From Dehalococcoidia bacterium (lineage in GTDB: Bacteria > Chloroflexota > Dehalococcoidia > Lucifugimonadales > UBA3495), in NCBI GenBank assembly GCA_965215425.1, contig OZ244064.1, positions 2,362,319-2,426,318 on the forward strand: a stretch of 64,000 bases of DNA, written 5' to 3'. Positions 7,865 to 51,535 of the stretch are shown here, piece after piece. The position numbers and the translations under genes were made by a program. The notes below the pieces were generated by a model, which saw only the letters and a program-made list of their open reading frames with translations, searched no databases and had not been told where the DNA came from. The stretch's first letter is position 1; every line of letters begins with the position of its first letter.

Positions 7865-7918
7865 CCTCGGTCTAAACCGGCGACTGCTGACCTGGTAAGG
7901 GGCCGTAGCCGGAATTCC

Positions 7919-7968
7919 GTCAACAAAGCCGCCCCGGGACGTTTCCGTCCCGGGGCGGCTTTGTTGAC
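7919..7968. terminator. perfect 22-bp-stem hairpin between convergent genes (bidirectional terminator candidate; no clear U-tract)
   Basis: GTCAACAAAGCCGCCCCGGGAC, 6-nt loop gtttcc, then GTCCCGGGGCGGCTTTGTTGAC. Confidence 0.5.
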
Positions 7969-7989
7969 GCTGGATAACCAGGGGTGTAA

Positions 7990-9876
7990 CTAACCGGCGT
8001 GCTCTTGCCAACCCCAGGGATTACGGGCGAGGGCTTGGTGGGTCCGGGCCTTTTCCAGCTTCTTGAAAAACTTATCAAGCAGCTGCGTTTGTCGGATAGC
8101 CCGTTTTTGTTCTTCAGTTTGCCAGGAGTGACTGGTGATAACCTTGTACTCTTTGGCAACGGATTGGTCCGCTTCTTGTTCTACACCGACTCGCCCCAGC
8201 CGGTCGATGACCAGTCGCAGCTTGTGGTTAACCAACCGCGTATTGATCGAAGGGTTTTCTTCCGTATCCCGGTATTCTTTCCCCACCGGTTGACGCTCTG
8301 CCTCCTCATTGTCCGGGTTGGTAGTTTTTAATAAAACGCCTTCGGGAGTGGTAACGGTCAACTCGTACCGCGTATCGCTGTGCGGATCATCCGGTTCTTC
8401 CCGCAAGGAATCCCGGGACTTAAAGTTTCCAAAAGGCTGTCGCGGGGAAGGCGCCAGGGGGGAATAAGGTTCGTAATGCACTTTCTCCCCGGTTTGCAGG
8501 TCCTCGAGGGTAATCCGCACCGGTAAGCGGTTAACATACAGAGGGCTATATTCACCGCTATAAGCATAGCAAGCCCCGGCGCTGATGGCGGTCAACTCCG
8601 GGTCGGGGATTTCCGGTGGAATCAGCTCGGCCGTCGGGATTACCCTGGTGTCTCCGAATCTATTTTGGATCTCAGCCAGGAAAACCGGTGATTTGGTAGG
8701 CCCGCCACACAGGATAATGCCGTCGATATCCCCGGCCATATCAGCCCAGTTCAGTTGCCAGACGAACTTTACGTCGCGGGTTTCCGGATTGCGCTGAATA
8801 ACTTCTCCAGAGGGAACATCAGTCCGTTCCCAAAGCCATTCAAAATGCTCCCGGAGATAACTCTCTTCGTTGGGAGCAGCTTCAAGCTCTTTCAGGGCAT
8901 TCTCAATTACTTCCGGTGGAACATCATCCCAATTCCGGCGCCAAATGTATTTTGCGCCGATGTAGGCGTCTCGCATGGCGCTCAGGGTCTTGGTGATGAA
9001 CTGACCTTCTTTGACCGCCCTTTTGTAATCCTCCCAAGAGAGGGTTTTACCGCCGGGCAGATTCTGCGGGGTTGAGGGGCCGACCACTTCCTTTGCCAGA
9101 CGCAGCAAATTGGGATTGCCGGTATGCTCCAAATAGCCGGCCAGCAGGTGGTCAATGTCGGAACCACCGATGACGGGGTTGCCGTCGGCGCCGTAGATAA
9201 TCATTTGCCTGGCGCCGACCTGGCACAAGGCACAGTCAAAGGAACCGCCCCCCAAGTCATAAACCATGTAGGAACTAACCGGCTTGTCGGTATCCGGCTT
9301 TAGGGCTCCCAGTTCGTGCGCCAGGGCCAGGAGCAACAGGGGCTCTTCCACAATTCGGCTGACCTCACCTTTTCCGGCTCCTCCCAGGTCAGTAATGACT
9401 TGGGCCAGTTCGGAGCGATAGGTTAGTCCGGCGTGAACCGGACAGCCCGCGCGCCACTCGAACCCTGGCTCCAACTCGGCCCGGCGAAAGGCCTCCTGCA
9501 ACATCAGGGACAACAGGTCTTTGACCGGGAACTCCTGGCCCCAAATTTGGATGCAGCGGGAATCCCGGTTCCACCAGGAAGGCCACCCCGTTTCGCGGAC
9601 TTCCAGGTGCCACCGAACAAAGGGGTCGTGGGCCAGGGCAAAGCGCTTGACGTTGCGGACGACTACCTGATTGGAGTTATCTTCCAGATTATCCGCGTCC
9701 TCGCCAACGATGGTTTCCACCTCTCCGCCGGGTTGACGACGAAAGGCCACCACTGTCGGCATGGTGTAGGCGTCCCCCTGCCCGATGGTCAGCGGTTGAG
9801 GCAGCTGACCGGACTCAGGGTCCCAGGTGGAAACCCGCAGGTTGGTGGTTCCCAGGTCTATGCCGACTACTTGCAT
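7990..9876 (-). CDS. atypical Hsp70/DnaK-family ATPase with a non-canonical C-terminal region
   Basis: Actin-fold/Hsp70 motifs are present: VGIDLGTTNLRV (phosphate-1), VYDLGGGSFDCAL (phosphate-2) and IILCGGPTKSPVF (adenosine). The C-terminal ~230 aa do not resemble a canonical DnaK substrate-binding domain or lid. RBS GGAGGG lies 6 nt upstream, inside the preceding gene. Confidence 0.8.
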   Translation of the reverse strand: MQVVGIDLGTTNLRVSTWDPESGQLPQPLTIGQGDAYTMPTVVAFRRQPGGEVETIVGEDADNLEDNSNQVVVRNVKRFALAHDPFVRWHLEVRETGWPSWWNRDSRCIQIWGQEFPVKDLLSLMLQEAFRRAELEPGFEWRAGCPVHAGLTYRSELAQVITDLGGAGKGEVSRIVEEPLLLLALAHELGALKPDTDKPVSSYMVYDLGGGSFDCALCQVGARQMIIYGADGNPVIGGSDIDHLLAGYLEHTGNPNLLRLAKEVVGPSTPQNLPGGKTLSWEDYKRAVKEGQFITKTLSAMRDAYIGAKYIWRRNWDDVPPEVIENALKELEAAPNEESYLREHFEWLWERTDVPSGEVIQRNPETRDVKFVWQLNWADMAGDIDGIILCGGPTKSPVFLAEIQNRFGDTRVIPTAELIPPEIPDPELTAISAGACYAYSGEYSPLYVNRLPVRITLEDLQTGEKVHYEPYSPLAPSPRQPFGNFKSRDSLREEPDDPHSDTRYELTVTTPEGVLLKTTNPDNEEAERQPVGKEYRDTEENPSINTRLVNHKLRLVIDRLGRVGVEQEADQSVAKEYKVITSHSWQTEEQKRAIRQTQLLDKFFKKLEKARTHQALARNPWGWQEHAG

Positions 9877-11780
9877 TGTTGTCCCTCCGGTTGATGTTTG
9901 ACCCGAGCTTTGAGCAACACCAGATTTCCGGTTTTTGTTCCGGGGATACGGGCCCCGGGGACTATAACCCGGACTAGGGTTCCTTTCGCCAAGGCTCCTT
10001 TCGGTGGATTTTCCGGTGGCTCGTGCAGGTCCGGGTCATACGCTACGAGTTCGTCTTCTTTGCCGTAAAACTCCGCTTCCCCGGCCTGAAGCGCAAGTTT
10101 AAGCCCGGCCTCAACGTCGCGTAACAAGCTATCCGGGTCGGCTCCATTCGCGCGCAGGGTCTTCAGGGTTTCGGACATAGCGAACAGCATATCCCGCCTT
10201 ATCTCCAGCCGGGATTCCTCGCGCTTGGCGGCGATTTCATTCCGCAATCCTTGCACCAGCCGCTCCAGTTCTCCCTTCCGGGCAGTGGAATTCGCCAGCC
10301 GACTCTCGTATTCTTCTCGCTGCTGCGCCAGCGCCAACTCGTCTTGCCGCTGCAAACCCTCAATGTGGCGGTGGGCTACCGTCAAAAGTTGGGCGATAAG
10401 AGGGTTATGCCCCGCAGCTGGAGGCTGTTCTATTGCGTCGTGATAAGCGGCGGATACTTCAGAGGTTAGGTTGTCTTCGCCTTCCGATAGCAACAGGGCC
10501 GCGGTTACCAACACATTCAGCCGCTCCGGCGCAGCGGCGTCCTTCCCCGTATATTGGCTGGATATGAACGCAATCAGGCCCGTGTCCGCTTTGGAGTTGT
10601 CCCCTAATGCCGTTCGCAGGGTGAGCTGCCTTAGCGACGAATGGCGCTCCGCTCGCAGCCAGGACAAGGCCCGGTTCAAAAGGGAGTTCCGGTTGGGGTA
10701 GGGCGGAGTTGCAAAGGCAGAAGCAGCCAGGTCGCCCCACAGGATGGCGCGCTGCGCGGCGTCAAGGTGCGCGGGCAGCATACGGAGCAGTTCTTCCGCC
10801 GCGGAACGGTCGCTTTTGATACTTTCCCACAAGCTGGCGGCAAAATCCTGCCGCCAGCGGGGATCCAGACTTGCCAGCCGGCTGACCTCAGCCAGGAGAG
10901 TCGCTATTCTTTCTCGTTGCTGGATGGCGTGCATCAGTTGCGCTATAACTTGGGGCGATTGGCGGGCTGACGTGCCAGCAGGTTGCTGCCCCAGGCAGGT
11001 CTGACGACGCTGGTAGGCTTTCGTCGCTAATTCCAGCCACTGGTCTCTGGCTTTGGGGGTAAGTCGGGACGCGGCCAGGGATTCGGCGGCGCCGGCCAGC
11101 AGGCGGGCCATCGTCCGTTCAATGATTTCTTCCGGGCAGTTCTCCACCAGCGCGGCCAATCCGTCGGGTGGCGTCGTGCCAGGGAGGGGGGTATCCTCTT
11201 TGGCCCAAAGCCACTTAATCCACGCCGGCAAAGCCTGGGTAGCGCCGGGGCGTGAACTGCTTTCCCTTTCCGATTTTGGCTTGCTCTTGCTGGCTGGTCG
11301 AGGCTTGGCCCGCGGCAGTGGCTCAATCGGGATGTCGGCGATTTCCGATATGATAGCGATGGGTTTGGCCGGCTCTATGTGAAAGTAGCCAGAATCCTTT
11401 GCCACCGGTCTGACCCGATCCCACCAGGTTTTCCAGGTTACGTCTCTTACAATCCGACCTTCCAGACATTTCTGCAAATCGCCGGACTTTCCGCTCCCGC
11501 CCAAATCGGCCAGGGTGGCGCCGATAAGTCGCAGGGGGCCGTCATCAACCCAGGAAAGCACTTGGTCAGGATTGTTGTAGAAGGAGGCTTCAAGACCTTC
11601 TTTCGGTAGCGTATCAAGGGAGGCCATTGCCGTTGCTTTGCTAAGGGTTACCGGCGCGTCCGGATTGGACAGGTAATGCAGTACTACCTGGGTTCCTTCC
11701 GGTTCAACGTCAACAATTCGCCCTACACCGTTTTCCTGGTGTTTAACGAAAGTGTCCGGGCTTATTTCGTTTAATTTCAT
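9867..11780 (-). CDS. large multidomain protein: CarD/TRCF-RID-like N-terminus (tentative), helical repeats, coiled coil, and a GrpE-like C-terminal domain
   Basis: The C-terminus FYGKEDELVAYDPDLHEPP...GTLVRVIVPGARI...GNLVLLKARVK follows the GrpE beta-domain pattern (G..FDP..HEA...V..GY...vlR.A.V.V) and comes after a long coiled coil. The N-terminus is FVKHQENGVGRIVDVEPEGTQVVLHY...WKTWWDRVR. Its stop overlaps the Hsp70 ATG (ATGCAAGTAG). Confidence 0.7.
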   Translation of the reverse strand: MKLNEISPDTFVKHQENGVGRIVDVEPEGTQVVLHYLSNPDAPVTLSKATAMASLDTLPKEGLEASFYNNPDQVLSWVDDGPLRLIGATLADLGGSGKSGDLQKCLEGRIVRDVTWKTWWDRVRPVAKDSGYFHIEPAKPIAIISEIADIPIEPLPRAKPRPASKSKPKSERESSSRPGATQALPAWIKWLWAKEDTPLPGTTPPDGLAALVENCPEEIIERTMARLLAGAAESLAASRLTPKARDQWLELATKAYQRRQTCLGQQPAGTSARQSPQVIAQLMHAIQQRERIATLLAEVSRLASLDPRWRQDFAASLWESIKSDRSAAEELLRMLPAHLDAAQRAILWGDLAASAFATPPYPNRNSLLNRALSWLRAERHSSLRQLTLRTALGDNSKADTGLIAFISSQYTGKDAAAPERLNVLVTAALLLSEGEDNLTSEVSAAYHDAIEQPPAAGHNPLIAQLLTVAHRHIEGLQRQDELALAQQREEYESRLANSTARKGELERLVQGLRNEIAAKREESRLEIRRDMLFAMSETLKTLRANGADPDSLLRDVEAGLKLALQAGEAEFYGKEDELVAYDPDLHEPPENPPKGALAKGTLVRVIVPGARIPGTKTGNLVLLKARVKHQPEGQQCK

Positions 11781-11812
11781 CGGATTCCTGAAACAGTTTG
11801 GCTAGGCTCTAG

Positions 11813-11842
11813 ATTATATTACCTGCGCTTACTTCAGGGCAA
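11813..11842 (-). promoter_or_regulatory. candidate promoter of the GrpE-like/Hsp70-like operon
   Basis: On the minus strand: TTGCCC, 18 nt, TATAAT, about 30 nt upstream of the ATG at 11780. Confidence 0.5.
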
Positions 11843-11886
11843 GAATACCGTCGCAATTTGCAGCAGACTTGACCCGCCAAAGGCAG

Positions 11887-11916
11887 TTGACAACCCCCTT
11901 TTCCTTGTGCTAGCTT
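11887..11916 (+). promoter_or_regulatory. candidate promoter of the T-box/ilvB transcript
   Basis: TTGACA (11887-11892), 18-nt spacer ending in TGC (extended -10), TAGCTT (11911-11916). Confidence 0.5.
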
Positions 11917-12222
11917 TCAGGGGTAAAGGCTTTGATGGAGACGAGTAGGCAAGGCGCGGCGCTCAAGCGAGCCTGGTATGGTGGGAGCAGGTGCGCCAAC
12001 CTGGTTGAAAATCCCTCCGGAGCTGCCTGCCCAACAGCCTGATGGCCCGGTTCTCTGACTTGAACCGGTCGAATAGCGCTCAGTAAGCCCGGCCGAGGTT
12101 CGTCGCTCGTTATCCCTGACGGGGCATGATAGTGCCTGCTAAGAGAGGTCCGGTTCGCCGGATAAATAGGGTGGTACCGCGGGAACATTCAAGTCCCGTC
12201 CCTATGGGGGACGGGTCTTTTT
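11917..12222 (+). promoter_or_regulatory. T-box leader (tRNA-sensing transcription attenuator)
   Basis: Stem I K-turn/AGTA elements (TTGATGGAGACGAGTAGG), an AGCGA bulge, the canonical T-box sequence AAATAGGGTGGTACCGCGGGAAC (12164-12186) and an overlapping terminator. Confidence 0.8.
12195..12222 (+). terminator. T-box intrinsic terminator
   Basis: CCCGTCCC, loop tatgg, GGGACGGG, tc, then TTTTT. Confidence 0.8.
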
Positions 12223-45940: not shown

Positions 45941-45967
45941 TTGGCACCCTCCTGGCGAGAGTGCTAG
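45941..45967 (+). promoter_or_regulatory. CIRCE operator (HrcA binding site)
   Basis: TTGGCACCC-N9-GAGTGCTAG versus the consensus TTAGCACTC-N9-GAGTGCTAA. Confidence 0.8.
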
Positions 45968-46009: not shown

Positions 46010-46309
46010 GTGGTAACCAAGACTACATTTGCTCCGCTGGGAGAGCGGATAATCATCAAACCCATCGAACAGGAGCAGACCACGCGTGGCGGGATTTACC
46101 TGCCGGATACCGCCAAGGAAAAGCCCCAGGAAGGCGAAGTTATCGCCGTTGGTCCCGGCCGGGCTACGGATGATGGCAGCCGGATTCCGATGGAATTGAG
46201 CGTGGGCGACCGTGTCATCTACTCCAAGTTCGCCGGCACCGAGTACAAGGACGGGGAAGACGAGTACCTGATTATGCGGGAGAGCGACGTTCTGGCCAAG
46301 ATTTCCTGA
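46010..46309 (+). CDS. groES: co-chaperonin GroES
   Basis: GTG start after [50 protein letters not shown]. Confidence 0.95.
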
Positions 46310-46411: not shown

Positions 46412-48031
46412 ATGCCCCCAAAGAAAATGGCTTACTCGGAAGAGGCTCGAAAGACTCTTCGTGTAGGCATAGACACCCTGGCCGAGTCCGTCAAGGTTAC
46501 CCTGGGGCCCAGGGGCCGCAACGTGGTTCTGGACAAGAAGTTTGGCCCACCCCTGGTTTGCAGCGACGGCGTCACCATTGCCAAGGAAATTGAACTCCCC
46601 GACGCCTTCGAGAACATGGGCGCCCAGCTGCTCAAAGAGGCCGCTACCAAGACTAACGATGCCGCCGGCGACGGCACCACCACCTCTATCGTGCTGGCCC
46701 AGAGCTTGATCAACGAAGGGTTCAAGAACGTTACCGCCGGCAGCAACCCCATGGCCATCAAACGCGGCATTGAGCAGGCCGTAGCTTCCGTGGTCGAGGA
46801 GTTGCGTACGATGGCCCAGACCGTGGAAACCCGGGACCGCATCAGCCAGGTTGCCAGCCTCTCCGCCCATGAAGAAGCCATCGGCGAGACCATTGCCGAG
46901 GCCATGGAAAAAGTGGGCAAGGACGGCGTGATCACGGTGGAAGAGTCCAAGGGTCTTTCGGACGAGATTGAATACGTCGAGGGGATGCAGGTTGACCGTG
47001 GTTACATCTCGCCCTACTTCATCACCAACTCGGACCGGATGGAAGCGGTGATCGAAGATGCTTCCCTAATCATCACCGATAAAAAGGTCTCCGCCGTTGC
47101 CGAATTGCTCCCGGCCCTGGAAAAGCTGCTGCAAATTGGCAAAAAGAACGTAGTAGTCATCGCTGAGGATGTGGACGGGGAAGCGCTGGCTACCCTGGTG
47201 GTGAACAAGCTGCGGGGCACCCTGAACATCCTGGCGGTCAAGGCCCCCGGTTTTGGCGACCGGCGCAAGGCCATGCTGGAAGACATCGCCATCCTGACCG
47301 GCGGTACGGTAATCAGCGAGGAAACCGGTCGCAAGCTGGATGCAGCGGTTATCGAGGACTTCGGTCAGGCCCGCCGGGTGAGCTCCACCAAGGACGAGAC
47401 CACCATCGTGGAGGGTCGCGGTTCCGAGTCGGACATCCAGGCCCGCATCAACCAGATTAAGACCCAGATTGAAGAGACCACTTCCGAGTTCGACCGGGAA
47501 AAGCTGCAAGAGCGCATGGCCAAGCTCTCCGGTGGCGTGGCCGTGATCAAGGTCGGCGCCGCCACTGAGATTGAGTTGAAGGAACGCAAGGCCCGGGTCG
47601 AAGACGCCCTTTCCGCCACCCGTTCCGCCGTGGAAGAGGGCATCGTCCCCGGGGGTGGCGTTGCCTTGGTCCGCGCCCAGCGGGCCCTGGATAGCGTTGG
47701 CGGCCTGACCGATGATGAGACCATTGGCGTCAACATCATCCGCCGTTCCCTGGAACAGCCCTTGAAGCTCATCGTGGAAAACGCCGGCTCCGAAGGTGCC
47801 GTGGTGTTGAACCAGGTCAAACAGCAGGCCGACGACTACGGTTATGACGCCGACATCGGGGAGTACGGCCCGATGATGGAGCGCGGTATCGTTGACCCGG
47901 TAAAGGTTACCCGCTATGCGTTGCAGAACGCCGCCAGCGTCGCCGCTATGGTGCTGACCACCGAGTCCATGATTACCGAGATTCCCGAAGATAAGGCCGC
48001 CGCGCCCGCTATGCCACCGATGGACTATTAG
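46412..48031 (+). CDS. groEL: chaperonin GroEL
   Basis: [33 protein letters not shown]...AAGDGTTTS... Confidence 0.95.
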
Positions 48032-51222: not shown

Positions 51223-51426
51223 TCTGAAGCCCTATTCCTGTCCCTGGCGGCGCAATCCTCCTGGCCGGCCGGCCCCGCCGCTCCGGTTTGGCGGTTTCGT
51301 TTATTTAGTATTCAGTAGCTCAGATGCGCACAGTCCTATCGGGCTAAACCCTATTTCAAGCGGAACCGGTTTGACTTACCGCCTGCTCCGTGCTAAAGTT
51401 TCTCCATCAGCTGAATAGGAAATGTT

Positions 51427-51530
51427 CTGGCGGGAGCTTGGGCAAGCCAGGCTGAGAGGGTAGCCGAGAGTCGCTACCGACCGTCTGTACCTGATCCGGG
51501 TAATGCCGGCGCAGGGACAAGACGCCGGAC
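51427..51530 (+). promoter_or_regulatory. TPP (THI-box) riboswitch
   Basis: GGCGGGAGC...GCTGAGAGGG...ACCTGATCCGGGTAATGCCGGCGCAGGGA matches the THI element core. Confidence 0.85.
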
Positions 51531-51535
51531 TTCGT

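What the first reader, a model, noticed from the sequence alone, without database searches (positions are those of the whole stretch)
7990..11842. Stand-alone, translationally coupled Hsp70-like ATPase plus 637-aa GrpE-like/CarD-like partner: candidate undescribed two-gene system
The upstream gene (9867-11780, minus strand) ends in a segment that follows the GrpE beta-domain pattern (FYGKEDELVAYDPDLHEPP...GTLVRVIVPGARI...VLLKARVK). This segment comes after a long coiled coil, as in nucleotide-exchange factors. However, the protein is about three times the size of GrpE. Its N-terminus looks like a CarD/TRCF RNAP-interacting SH3-like module (FVKHQENGVGRIVDVEPEGTQVVLHY...WKTWWDRVR), and about 300 aa of helical repeats lie in between.

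Its stop overlaps the ATG of the downstream gene (ATGCAAGTAG), and the downstream RBS (GGAGGG) lies inside its coding sequence. The downstream protein keeps all Hsp70 ATPase motifs (GIDLGTTN, DLGGGSFD, CGGPTKSP). Its last ~230 aa do not look like a DnaK substrate-binding domain or lid.

The pair has its own TTGCCC-18-TATAAT promoter and a 22-bp-stem hairpin at its end. It has no adjacent J-protein and no CIRCE element, whereas groESL in the same window has one. It also looks AT-richer than its flanks.

A dedicated Hsp70/NEF module fused to a possible RNA-polymerase-docking domain could be an RNAP- or nucleoprotein-remodelling system or a conflict system rather than a housekeeping chaperone.
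Basis: partly seen in the sequence, partly recalled or inferred. Interest (0 to 1): 0.8.

Follow-up and report, generated by a model that had tools for sequence, protein, structure and literature searches.

The report
Divergent Hsp70 with giant GrpE-like partner
This is a real, conserved two-gene chaperone module: an unusual Hsp70 ATPase plus a very large GrpE-type exchange factor whose front end resembles domains that other proteins use to dock on RNA polymerase. It has not been characterised and may link a chaperone to transcription.

Summary
The downstream protein has a complete Hsp70 ATPase domain. It also has a family-specific C-terminal domain with no sequence similarity to the DnaK substrate-binding domain.

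The upstream 637-aa protein has five parts:
- an optional Tudor-like domain, whose best matches are the RNAP-binding Tudor domains of UvrD/PcrA, CarD/Mfd and RapA
- a winged helix (Pfam HTH_GRAD); Tudor and winged helix together match the "unknown domain" of long GreA proteins
- an optional α-solenoid
- a long coiled coil
- a C-terminal domain that is a remote GrpE homolog (hhalign 86–97% probability, controls ≤1.5%; the top two PDB hits are GrpE)

In 12 of 12 loci examined the two genes are adjacent and translationally coupled. They lie among housekeeping genes. I found no J-protein, no CIRCE element, and no defence-system, plasmid or phage signal.

Best reading: a diverged grpE–dnaK-type operon in which the exchange factor has become a targeting scaffold, probably for RNA polymerase or nucleic-acid-bound clients. 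The defence-system reading is not supported. RNAP docking is inferred, not shown. I rate it a new variant of a known kind, of moderately high interest.

The parts
11813..11842 (-). σ70-type promoter-like site TTGCCC-18-TATAAT for the two-gene operon
   Evidence: By my reading of the sequences, similarly placed -35/-10 pairs occur in L003, L008 and L009. Not significant on its own (1 site found against 1.5 expected).
9867..11780 (-). Partner gene, 637 aa: multidomain GrpE-family protein
   Evidence: The start matches the N-termini of homologs.
11607..11768 (-). Partner aa 5-58: Tudor-like five-strand β domain. Optional: present in 7 of 12 loci.
   Evidence: AF2 strands 11-58. PDB profile hits to UvrD/PcrA C-terminal Tudor domains, best E 0.01. 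Pfam CarD_TRCF_RID in 11/24 members, PcrA_UvrD_tudor in 8/24 and RapA Tudor in 2/24, all below threshold.
11346..11603 (-). Partner aa 60-145: winged helix, Pfam PF27167 HTH_GRAD, with a conserved WxxWW helix. Present in all 12 loci.
   Evidence: Precomputed Pfam hit on the window's own protein. SelB winged-helix hits at E 0.005. Together with the Tudor domain it matches long-GreA models PRK14720 and PRK06330. Per-locus presence.
11226..11345 (-). Partner aa 146-185: low-complexity linker predicted to be disordered
   Evidence: pLDDT below 50 for aa 158-183.
10428..11225 (-). Partner aa 186-451: α-solenoid (TPR/HEAT-like). Absent from the 344-402-aa orthologs.
   Evidence: Only generic solenoid matches, none significant. 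No Pfam family.
9870..10403 (-). Partner aa 460-637: 85-residue helix, a second helix and a six-strand β domain. This is the GrpE-homologous module, with a YDPxLH signature.
9867..9888 (-). Coupling junction: GGAGGG Shine-Dalgarno sequence (9888-9883) inside the partner's coding sequence, ATG at 9876-9874, partner TAG at 9869-9867 (10-nt overlap)
   Evidence: Six other loci show an equivalent GGAGG plus a 1-nt stop/start overlap. Gaps range from -10 to +10 nt in all 12 loci.
7990..9876 (-). Hsp70-like gene, 628 aa
8566..9876 (-). Hsp70-like aa 1-437: actin-fold ATPase domain. D7, K77, E178, D207 and GGGS209-212 are invariant in the family.
   Evidence: PF00012 at 52 bits against a cut-off of 20.6. 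DnaK NBD hits in PDB. Family invariants.
7993..8565 (-). Hsp70-like aa 438-628: linker, a family-specific β-rich domain (NRLPxRxTLE, RYELTxT, LRLVIDRLGxVGVE, PPWQT), a 30-residue helix and an NPWGWQEHxG tail
   Evidence: No sequence similarity to the DnaK SBD. Foldseek aligns the full length to two-domain Hsp70 structures.
7918..7969 (.). 24-bp hairpin with a GAAA loop between convergent genes; probable bidirectional intrinsic terminator
   Evidence: -59.5 kcal/mol, z = -8.8.

Best explanation
The locus is a self-contained, vertically inherited chaperone operon descended from a grpE-dnaK-type gene pair.

**Shown**
- The downstream gene encodes a divergent Hsp70. All invariant NBD positions that I align to DnaK's ATPase residues are kept. 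After the linker comes a family-specific C-terminal domain.
- The upstream gene encodes a protein whose last ~130 aa are a remote GrpE homolog, preceded by a very long helix.
- The two genes are adjacent and translationally coupled in every locus examined.

**Inferred**
- The partner dimerises through the long helix, as GrpE does.
- Its β domain opens the nucleotide cleft of the adjacent Hsp70, so it acts as that protein's dedicated nucleotide-exchange factor.
- Its N-terminal modules make it a targeting scaffold as well. These modules are a Tudor-like domain of the type that Mfd, CarD, UvrD/PcrA and RapA use to bind the RNAP β subunit, plus a winged helix. The same two modules occur inside long GreA proteins.
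- The scaffold brings the Hsp70 to RNA polymerase or to nucleic-acid-bound complexes, where ATP-driven cycles remodel, release or reactivate them.

The optional α-solenoid would serve as a spacer or an additional binding platform.

My rough sub-probabilities are: Hsp70 plus GrpE-homolog working as a unit, about 0.85; exchange-factor activity, about 0.65; RNAP as the target, about 0.4.
For: **Hsp70 identity**
- PF00012 scores 52 bits against a cut-off of 20.6.
- DnaK NBD hits in PDB down to E 1e-12.
- D7, K77, E178, D207 and GGGS are invariant in 48 family members.
- The AF2 model has pLDDT 88.5 and pTM 0.89.
- The Foldseek top 50 are all two-domain Hsp70 structures, E about 1e-20.

**GrpE homology**
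- A 39-sequence profile has GrpE of M. tuberculosis (E 0.0035) and T. thermophilus (E 0.0079) as its top two PDB hits. The next hit is at E 0.74.
- hhalign gives 86.5% against strict GrpE sequences and 97.2% when the Pfam-validated intermediates are added. Reversed, shuffled and unrelated controls give 1.5% or less.
- The intermediate P0287, found by the profile at E 5e-6, passes the Pfam GrpE gathering score.
- The YDPxLH motif aligns with the GrpE FDPxxH motif.
- The AF2 topology is long helix, helix, six strands.

**Coupling and synteny**
- In 12 of 12 loci the GrpE-like partner lies immediately upstream of the Hsp70-like gene, with a gap of -10 to +10 nt. An internal Shine-Dalgarno sequence was seen at the six junctions examined.

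**RNAP link**
- UvrD/PcrA Tudor hits in PDB.
- CarD_TRCF_RID in 11/24 members, PcrA_UvrD_tudor in 8/24 and RapA Tudor in 2/24.
- The Tudor plus winged-helix module matches long-GreA models in 16-19 of 24 members, with E down to 1.9e-16.
- These Tudor families are experimentally established RNAP-interaction domains (PMC5397179).
Against: - No direct Pfam GrpE or CarD hit reaches the curated threshold.
- The fold-level GrpE test failed. Foldseek on the full-length partner model saw only the solenoid, and the C-terminal part of that model has only moderate pLDDT (57-79).
- The Tudor domain is missing in 5 of 12 orthologs, so RNAP docking through it cannot be universal.
- The winged helix could bind DNA, RNA or another protein.
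- No J-protein was found nearby. How the ATPase is stimulated is therefore unknown.
- No complex model, expression data or genetics are available.
- Lower GC3 than the neighbours in seven genomes may mean low expression.
Confidence: 0.5

Rival explanations
1. This is a specialised proteostasis paralog with no RNA-polymerase link. The pair would be a second DnaK/GrpE-like system that expands chaperone capacity. The partner's N-terminal domains would bind other things, such as nucleoid DNA, RNA, ribosomes or particular client proteins.
For: - dnaK paralogs are most frequent in Chloroflexi, in 54.5% of genomes, and bicistronic grpE-dnaK2 operons are known (PMC11019930).
- The context is housekeeping.
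- The Tudor domain is dispensable in 5 of 12 orthologs.
- The winged helix matches the RNA-binding SelB winged-helix domains.
Against: - The Tudor plus winged-helix module is shared specifically with long GreA proteins, which are RNAP factors.
- The only recurrent Tudor matches are to RNAP-binding families.
- The Hsp70-like C-terminal domain is not a recognisable peptide-binding SBD in sequence.
Confidence: 0.3
2. The GrpE-like end is a static Hsp70-binding anchor or inhibitor rather than an exchange factor. The Hsp70-like ATPase would then act as a nucleotide-gated switch or assembly factor held on the scaffold, not as a cycling chaperone.
For: - The family has diverged strongly from GrpE, with no direct Pfam hit.
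- No J-protein was found.
- In the alignment, window E177 and L180 align to the DnaK residues I recall as N170 and T173 of the J-domain contact site. The DnaK residue roles are from memory.
- The high pTM of 0.89 suggests a rigid two-domain Hsp70-like protein.
Against: - The invariant NBD positions that align to DnaK's ATPase residues are kept across the family.
- The GrpE signature motif and topology are kept.
Confidence: 0.12
3. This is an anti-phage or conflict system built on Hsp70 and GrpE, like the GTPase-centred systems that include Hsp70 and GrpE genes.
For: - Hsp70+GrpE gene pairs occur in GAP1-N2 GTPase conflict systems (PMC7159879).
- The pair's GC3 is lower than that of its neighbours.
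- A stand-alone 175-aa relative of the GrpE-like domain lies in a run of about 26 small same-strand ORFs that looks phage-like.
Against: - No PADLOC hits for either protein or for 48 family members.
- No homologs in 72,556 plasmids or 50,697 phages or in IMG/VR.
- No GTPase, effector or defence gene is adjacent.
- The same housekeeping neighbours are kept across diverged genomes.
- The pair was found in each of the eleven related loci examined, most of them on megabase-scale contigs.
Confidence: 0.05

Closest known systems
Canonical grpE-dnaK operons (e.g. hrcA-grpE-dnaK-dnaJ; M. xanthus MXAN_6672-MXAN_6671 grpE-dnaK2, PMC11019930)
   Same: The gene order is the same, with the exchange factor immediately upstream of the Hsp70. 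There is a GrpE-homologous C-terminal module and a complete Hsp70 ATPase domain.
   Different: - The partner is about three times the size of GrpE and carries Tudor, winged-helix and solenoid modules.
- Neither protein reaches the curated cut-offs of the DnaK or GrpE models.
- There is no dnaJ and no CIRCE.
- The Hsp70 C-terminal domain is unrecognisable as an SBD in sequence.
Long GreA fusion proteins of Spirochaetes and Chlamydiae (NCBIfam PRK14720, PRK06330)
   Same: They share the Tudor-like plus winged-helix (HTH_GRAD) module. In total 16-19 of 24 family members hit these models, with E down to 1.9e-16.
   Different: The partner has no Gre cleavage-factor domains. Its module is fused to a GrpE-like domain instead.
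RNAP-interaction Tudor domains of Mfd/CarD (PF02559), PcrA/UvrD (PF21196) and RapA
   Same: It is a small five-strand β domain with a V-x-H-x3-G-x-G motif, and these families are its best and only recurrent matches.
   Different: All hits are below the curated thresholds. RNAP binding is untested. The domain is absent in some orthologs.
Eukaryotic BAG-family exchange factors, especially BAG-1M/Hap46 (PMC2672009)
   Same: The logic is the same: an Hsp70 exchange factor whose N-terminal region binds another target (DNA), so that ternary target-NEF-Hsp70 complexes form and influence transcription.
   Different: The folds are unrelated (BAG three-helix bundle versus GrpE-like), as is the lineage. 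This is an analogy only.
Hsp70+GrpE modules in GAP1-N2 GTPase conflict systems (PMC7159879)
   Same: An Hsp70 paralog is paired with a GrpE gene outside the heat-shock operon.
   Different: Here there is no GTPase, tubulin, FNIII/DnaJ protein or effector, and the context is housekeeping.

Membership tests
Hsp70 (Pfam PF00012) | Sequence match to the family model above the gathering score | tested here: met
   52 bits against a cut-off of 20.6, but only aa 3-250 align.
Hsp70 (Pfam PF00012) | Conserved nucleotide-binding and catalytic residues of the actin-fold ATPase | tested here: met
   D7, G9, T10, K77, E178, D207, GGGS209-212 and GG391-392 are invariant in 48 members. They align to the DnaK motifs.
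Hsp70 (Pfam PF00012) | C-terminal β-sandwich substrate-binding domain plus helical lid | tested here: inconclusive
   Against: the profile of aa 438-628 finds no SBD in PDB, and hhalign against a DnaK SBD alignment gives 0.1%. For: Foldseek aligns 655-727 columns to two-domain Hsp70 structures, and no NBD-only structure is in the top 50. The secondary structure is about 9 strands followed by a long helix.
Named bacterial Hsp70 subfamilies in NCBIfam (DnaK, HscA, PRK11678 'molecular chaperone', which I take to be YegD-type) | Whole-protein score above NCBIfam's curated cut-off | tested here: not met
   The best hit is DnaK PRK00290 at 67.8 bits against 648. HscA scores 53 against 709, and PRK11678 scores 15 against 331. 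No HscC model appeared in the output.
GrpE (Pfam PF01025) | Direct match to the family model above the gathering score | tested here: not met
   The window protein has no hit at E ≤ 1. Two of 39 domain members hit at E 0.28.
GrpE (Pfam PF01025) | Remote homology by profile and by intermediate sequences | tested here: met
   The top two PDB hits are GrpE, at 0.0035 and 0.0079. hhalign gives 86.5% and 97.2%, with controls at 1.5% or less. P0287 passes the GrpE gathering score, and P0291 and P0243 match colinearly.
GrpE (Pfam PF01025) | Long dimerisation helix, bundle helices, then a C-terminal β domain with an (F/Y)DPxxH motif | tested here: met
   AF2 secondary structure is H460-544, H549-566 and six strands in 570-629, at pLDDT 57-79. 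YDPDLH aligns with FDPVLH and FDPRYH. A structure-library comparison of this domain alone could not be done.
GrpE (Pfam PF01025) | Dimer that accelerates nucleotide release from its Hsp70 | not testable with these tools
   This needs biochemistry or a complex model.
CarD_TRCF_RID / PcrA_UvrD Tudor (PF02559, PF21196) | Match above the gathering score | tested here: not met
   The window protein scores 13.8 bits against 23 and 11.8 against 23.9.
CarD_TRCF_RID / PcrA_UvrD Tudor (PF02559, PF21196) | Tudor-like five-strand β fold with recurrent family-level similarity | tested here: inconclusive
   Sub-threshold hits in 11/24 and 8/24 members, best E 0.0065 and 8e-4. Six of nine PDB profile hits are UvrD/PcrA Tudor domains, best E 0.01. 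AF2 gives five strands in aa 11-58.
CarD_TRCF_RID / PcrA_UvrD Tudor (PF02559, PF21196) | Binds the RNAP β subunit | not testable with these tools
   This is known for those families (PMC5397179) but untested here.
HTH_GRAD (Pfam PF27167) | Match to the Pfam model | tested here: met
   There is a precomputed Pfam hit on the window's own protein and on partners in L001-L004, L007, L025, L026 and L030. My local Pfam copy lacks this model, so I could not re-run it.
Long GreA transcript-cleavage factors (PRK14720, PRK06330) | Gre coiled-coil and globular domains; whole-protein score above the cut-off | tested here: not met
   Only model positions 309-436 and 137-255 match, scoring 28 bits against 714. 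This is a shared module, not family membership.
Known anti-phage defence systems (PADLOC-DB) | Match to any defence-protein model, or association with mobile elements | tested here: not met
   No hits for either protein or for 48 family members. No plasmid, phage or IMG/VR relatives.
HrcA/CIRCE heat-shock regulon | CIRCE inverted repeat upstream | tested here: not met
   The only CIRCE-like site in the window is at 45941-45967, upstream of groES.

The most novel reading that the evidence does not exclude
The pair is an RNA-polymerase-tethered Hsp70 machine. The dimeric GrpE-like scaffold would dock on the RNAP β subunit through its Tudor and winged-helix module, the same module that long GreA proteins carry. 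It would then use the dedicated Hsp70 to dislodge, disassemble or reactivate stalled or damaged transcription complexes. That would be a chaperone-based counterpart of Mfd, UvrD or GreA, and a bacterial analogue of BAG-type targeting exchange factors.
Probability: 0.3. Interest if true: 0.85.

Novelty: new variant of a known kind. Interest (0 to 1): 0.6.

Why it matters
Bacterial Hsp70 systems are thought to be targeted by J-proteins, with GrpE acting as a plain reset factor. Here the exchange factor has acquired targeting modules and no J-protein is nearby. That arrangement resembles the eukaryotic BAG-type logic, apparently evolved independently in bacteria.

If the Tudor and winged-helix module does bind RNA polymerase, this would be a dedicated chaperone for transcription complexes. 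It would also assign a role to the unexplained extension of the long GreA proteins of spirochaetes and chlamydiae.

The family is sizeable: 248 clusters at 50% identity for the GrpE-like domain alone. I found no paper on it.

Tried and rejected
**Approaches that led nowhere**
- **Foldseek on the full-length partner model.** It returned only non-significant TPR/HEAT-like solenoid matches. It could not test the terminal domains, and I could not crop models.
- **Metagenome-contig scan with the Hsp70 alignment.** It was swamped by the generic GIDLGTTN motif and returned only canonical DnaK, MreB and other Hsp70-like genes. I reused three of the DnaK genes for the SBD profile.
- **Third homolog search, seeded with GrpE.** It gave only enterobacterial GrpE. 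It confirmed that my recalled E. coli sequence is correct but added little diversity.
- **Literature searches.** Searches for GRAD, HTH_GRAD, PF27167, GreA extensions and GrpE+Tudor found nothing on this system.

**Ideas tested and dropped**
- **C-terminal tail docking on the partner's solenoid.** I considered that the NPWGWQEHxG tail of the Hsp70-like protein docks on the solenoid in the way EEVD tails dock on TPR domains. The tail also occurs with the solenoid-less partners of L008 and L009, so I rejected this.
- **Recent horizontal transfer as the cause of low GC.** I rejected this because the same GC3 dip and the same neighbours recur in diverged genomes.
- **Phage origin of the stand-alone GrpE-like P0243 (L027).** This was not confirmed. 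PHROG hits are weak and IMG/VR has no relatives.

Full report
**1.

The window has two overlapping ORFs on the minus strand, 9867-11780 (637 aa) and 7990-9876 (628 aa).

The junction is as described. GGAGGG lies at 9888-9883 inside the upstream coding sequence. The downstream ATG is at 9876-9874 and the upstream TAG at 9869-9867, giving a 10-nt overlap.

A TTGCCC-18-TATAAT site lies at 11842-11813. One such site is no more than chance expects. By my reading of the aligned sequences, similarly placed -35/-10 pairs occur upstream of the orthologous genes in L003, L008 and L009.

The terminal hairpin, 7918-7969, has a 24-bp stem and a GAAA loop, with -59.5 kcal/mol and z = -8.8. It sits between convergent genes.

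The pair has somewhat lower GC (0.57-0.59 against a window mean of 0.617) and clearly lower GC3 (about 0.64 against 0.74-0.81) than its neighbours.

**2. The downstream protein is a true but divergent Hsp70**

- Pfam HSP70 matches aa 3-250 above the gathering score.
- PDB sequence hits are DnaK NBDs.
- NCBIfam DnaK, HscA and PRK11678 (YegD-type) models score roughly ten-fold or more below their cut-offs.
- The family is large. The top 120 database hits are all near-full-length matches (76-100% coverage) at 38-65% identity.

In a 48-sequence alignment, D7, K77, E178, D207, GGGS and GG391-392 are invariant. By my reading these are the counterparts of DnaK D8, K70, E171 and D194. Several C-terminal motifs are also invariant: NRLPxRxTLE, RYELTxT, LRLVIDRLG and PPWQT.

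The AF2 model is confident, with pLDDT 88.5 and pTM 0.89. It shows an NBD up to about aa 437, then about nine strands, then a 30-residue helix.

The top 50 Foldseek hits are all two-domain Hsp70 structures, aligned over 638-727 columns. No NBD-only structure is among them. This suggests an SBD-like fold.

At the sequence level, however, the C-terminal domain shows no relation to the DnaK SBD. A profile search of PDB finds nothing, and hhalign against a DnaK SBD alignment gives 0.1%. That point stays open.

**3. The upstream protein is modular**

An alignment of 12 homologs and an AF2 model with pLDDT 74 give this layout:
- aa 5-58: five β strands
- aa 60-145: a helical domain with a β wing
- aa 158-183: disordered linker
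- aa 186-451: α-solenoid
- aa 460-544: a single 85-residue helix
- aa 549-566: a second helix
- aa 570-629: six short strands

Orthologs of 344-402 aa lack the solenoid, and others lack the first β domain. The winged helix and the C-terminal module are always present.

**4. The C-terminal module is a remote GrpE homolog**

Direct Pfam scans are negative. Four other lines of evidence support homology:
- A 10-sequence profile has GrpE as its top PDB hit, at E 0.037, colinear over the whole domain.
- A 39-sequence profile has GrpE from two phyla as its top two hits (0.0035 and 0.0079). The next hit is at 0.74.
- An exhaustive search of 1.84 billion representatives finds 248 clusters, and the domain is always C-terminal. 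Three of the weaker hits themselves match Pfam GrpE. P0287 scores above the gathering score, and P0291 and P0243 match colinearly.
- hhalign against bona fide GrpE gives 86.5% over 97 columns. The GrpE set was E. coli (sequence verified), Enterobacter, and the two PDB fragments. Adding the Pfam-validated intermediates gives 97.2%. Reversed, column-shuffled and unrelated profiles give 1.5% or less.

The YDPxLH motif aligns with the GrpE FDPxxH motif. A structure-library test of this domain alone could not be made, because Foldseek on the whole model saw only the solenoid.

**5. The N-terminal module points to RNA polymerase, weakly but consistently**

A 24-sequence profile hits the C-terminal Tudor domains of UvrD/PcrA in PDB for aa 6-48 (best E 0.01; six of nine hits). 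It hits SelB winged helices for aa 72-127, at E 0.005.

Member by member, the only recurrent Pfam families are CarD_TRCF_RID (11/24), PcrA_UvrD_tudor (8/24) and RapA Tudor (2/24). All are below threshold. These domains are established RNAP-interaction modules (PMC5397179).

The winged helix is Pfam PF27167, HTH_GRAD. The hit is precomputed on the window's own protein.

The strongest result is that Tudor plus winged helix together match an internal region of the long GreA fusion proteins. PRK14720 is hit by 16/24 members (best E 1.9e-16) and PRK06330 by 19/24 (best E 9e-12). I found no paper on this module or on the pair.

**6. The two genes form a strict unit in a housekeeping context**

I examined twelve loci: the window plus L001, L002, L003, L005-L009, L025, L030 and L031. 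They come from genomes in which the Hsp70-like proteins are about 40-65% identical.

In all twelve, a protein with the GrpE-like end (domain E-values about 1e-44 to 1e-54) lies directly upstream of an Hsp70-like gene carrying the family-specific C-terminal domain. The gap is between -10 and +10 nt.

At the six junctions examined, a GGAGG lies inside the partner's last codons. This probably explains the conserved C-terminal Glu-Val.

The window's neighbours are Aminotran_5, Peptidase_C1_2, DLH and, on the other side, a T-box with a TPP enzyme and a methyltransferase. The same genes flank the pair in L008 and L009, and partly in L003. Elsewhere the neighbours differ (nuo genes, signal peptidase, moaE) but are ordinary. 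No third gene is conserved.

Other negative results:
- No J-domain in the window or in the eleven loci
- No CIRCE near the pair
- No PADLOC hit for the pair or for 48 family members
- No relative of the partner in the plasmid, phage or IMG/VR collections

The only named relatives are a Dehalococcoidia MAG and a Chloroflexota MAG protein. A Chloroflexota origin for the window is likely but not proven.

**7. Interpretation**

The most economical reading is a diverged grpE-dnaK-type operon whose exchange factor has grown into a dimeric scaffold.
- Shown: the domain identities, the coupling and the synteny.
- Inferred: dimerisation through the long helix, nucleotide-exchange activity, and targeting by the N-terminal modules.

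RNAP is the favoured target because of the Tudor family matches and the module shared with GreA proteins. The Tudor domain is optional, though, and the winged helix could bind nucleic acid instead.

The nearest functional analogy is BAG-1M/Hap46, an exchange factor whose N-terminus binds DNA and which forms DNA-NEF-Hsc70 complexes (PMC2672009).

The defence-system reading is not supported. A plain second-DnaK reading remains a serious rival. dnaK paralogs are commonest in Chloroflexi, and grpE-dnaK2 bicistrons are known (PMC11019930).

**8. Verdict**

This is a real, conserved and uncharacterised module. It is a new variant of the Hsp70/GrpE kind rather than a new kind. Interest is moderately high because the exchange factor, not a J-protein, appears to carry the targeting function. 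The shared GreA module also makes an RNAP connection directly testable.

Noticed in passing
window 11923-12206 (+): A T-box leader (RF00230, 99 bits) lies upstream of the TPP-enzyme (acetolactate-synthase-like) gene, with a terminator-like hairpin at 12195-12215. It fills most of the divergent intergenic region next to the pair's promoter. The annotated ORF start at 12126 lies inside the leader, so the true start is probably further downstream. A TTGTCAAC/GTTGACAA element at about 11882-11893 is conserved in L003, L008 and L009. By my reading it is the -35 of this leader's promoter.
   Followed up: partly
window 51420-51534 (+): TPP riboswitch (RF00059, 65.9 bits).
   Followed up: no
window 45941-45967 (+), 46010-46309, 46412-48031: A CIRCE-like inverted repeat (TTGGCACCC-N9-GAGTGCTAG, 3 mismatches) lies just upstream of a 99-aa ORF, presumably groES, and a Cpn60 gene.
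   Followed up: partly
window 7990-11780; L001, L002, L003, L006, L007, L009: In all seven genomes both genes of the pair have lower GC3 (0.59-0.72, once 0.83) than their housekeeping neighbours (0.70-0.89), even though synteny is conserved. This may reflect low expression or selection on codon use. It is unexplained.
   Followed up: partly
window 7993-8025 (-), Hsp70-like aa 618-628: A conserved aromatic tail, NPWGWQEHxG (variants NPFGWQ, PPWEYP), lies at the extreme C-terminus of many family members, after the last helix. It does not co-vary with the presence of the partner's solenoid. Its binding partner is unknown.
   Followed up: partly
window 9870-9890 (-); junctions in L001-L009: The near-invariant Glu-Val near the partner's C-terminus coincides with the GGAGGT Shine-Dalgarno sequence of the downstream gene. 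This looks like a dual coding and translation-initiation constraint.
   Followed up: partly
L027 2025-2552 (P0243), also L028; L029 (P0245): A stand-alone 175-aa protein matches the partner's GrpE-like domain at E 1e-17. It lies in a run of about 26 small same-strand ORFs without Pfam hits, in metagenome samples with the same PANK22-1 name prefix as L003 and L008. This may be a phage or mobile-element copy of the exchange-factor domain. PHROG hits are weak and IMG/VR has none.
   Followed up: partly
protein P0287 (268 aa): This protein appears to carry a hydrophobic N-terminal segment and two tandem copies of a GrpE β-domain-like unit (FDPRKH and FDPVIH). It passes the Pfam GrpE gathering score. 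It may be an unusual membrane-anchored GrpE derivative.
   Followed up: no
window about 8820-8925 (-) and about 8270-8340 (-), Hsp70-like aa about 318-352 and 513-535: There are two insertions relative to most family members. One is a two-helix insert in the ATPase domain shared only with P0016. The other is an acidic loop in the C-terminal domain shared with a few close relatives.
   Followed up: no
L013, L019, L021: A separate family of 504-aa Hsp70-like proteins (MTPIGIDLGTTNIVAAWVD...) lacking the DnaK SBD motif turned up among the metagenome hits. It is unrelated to this finding.
   Followed up: no
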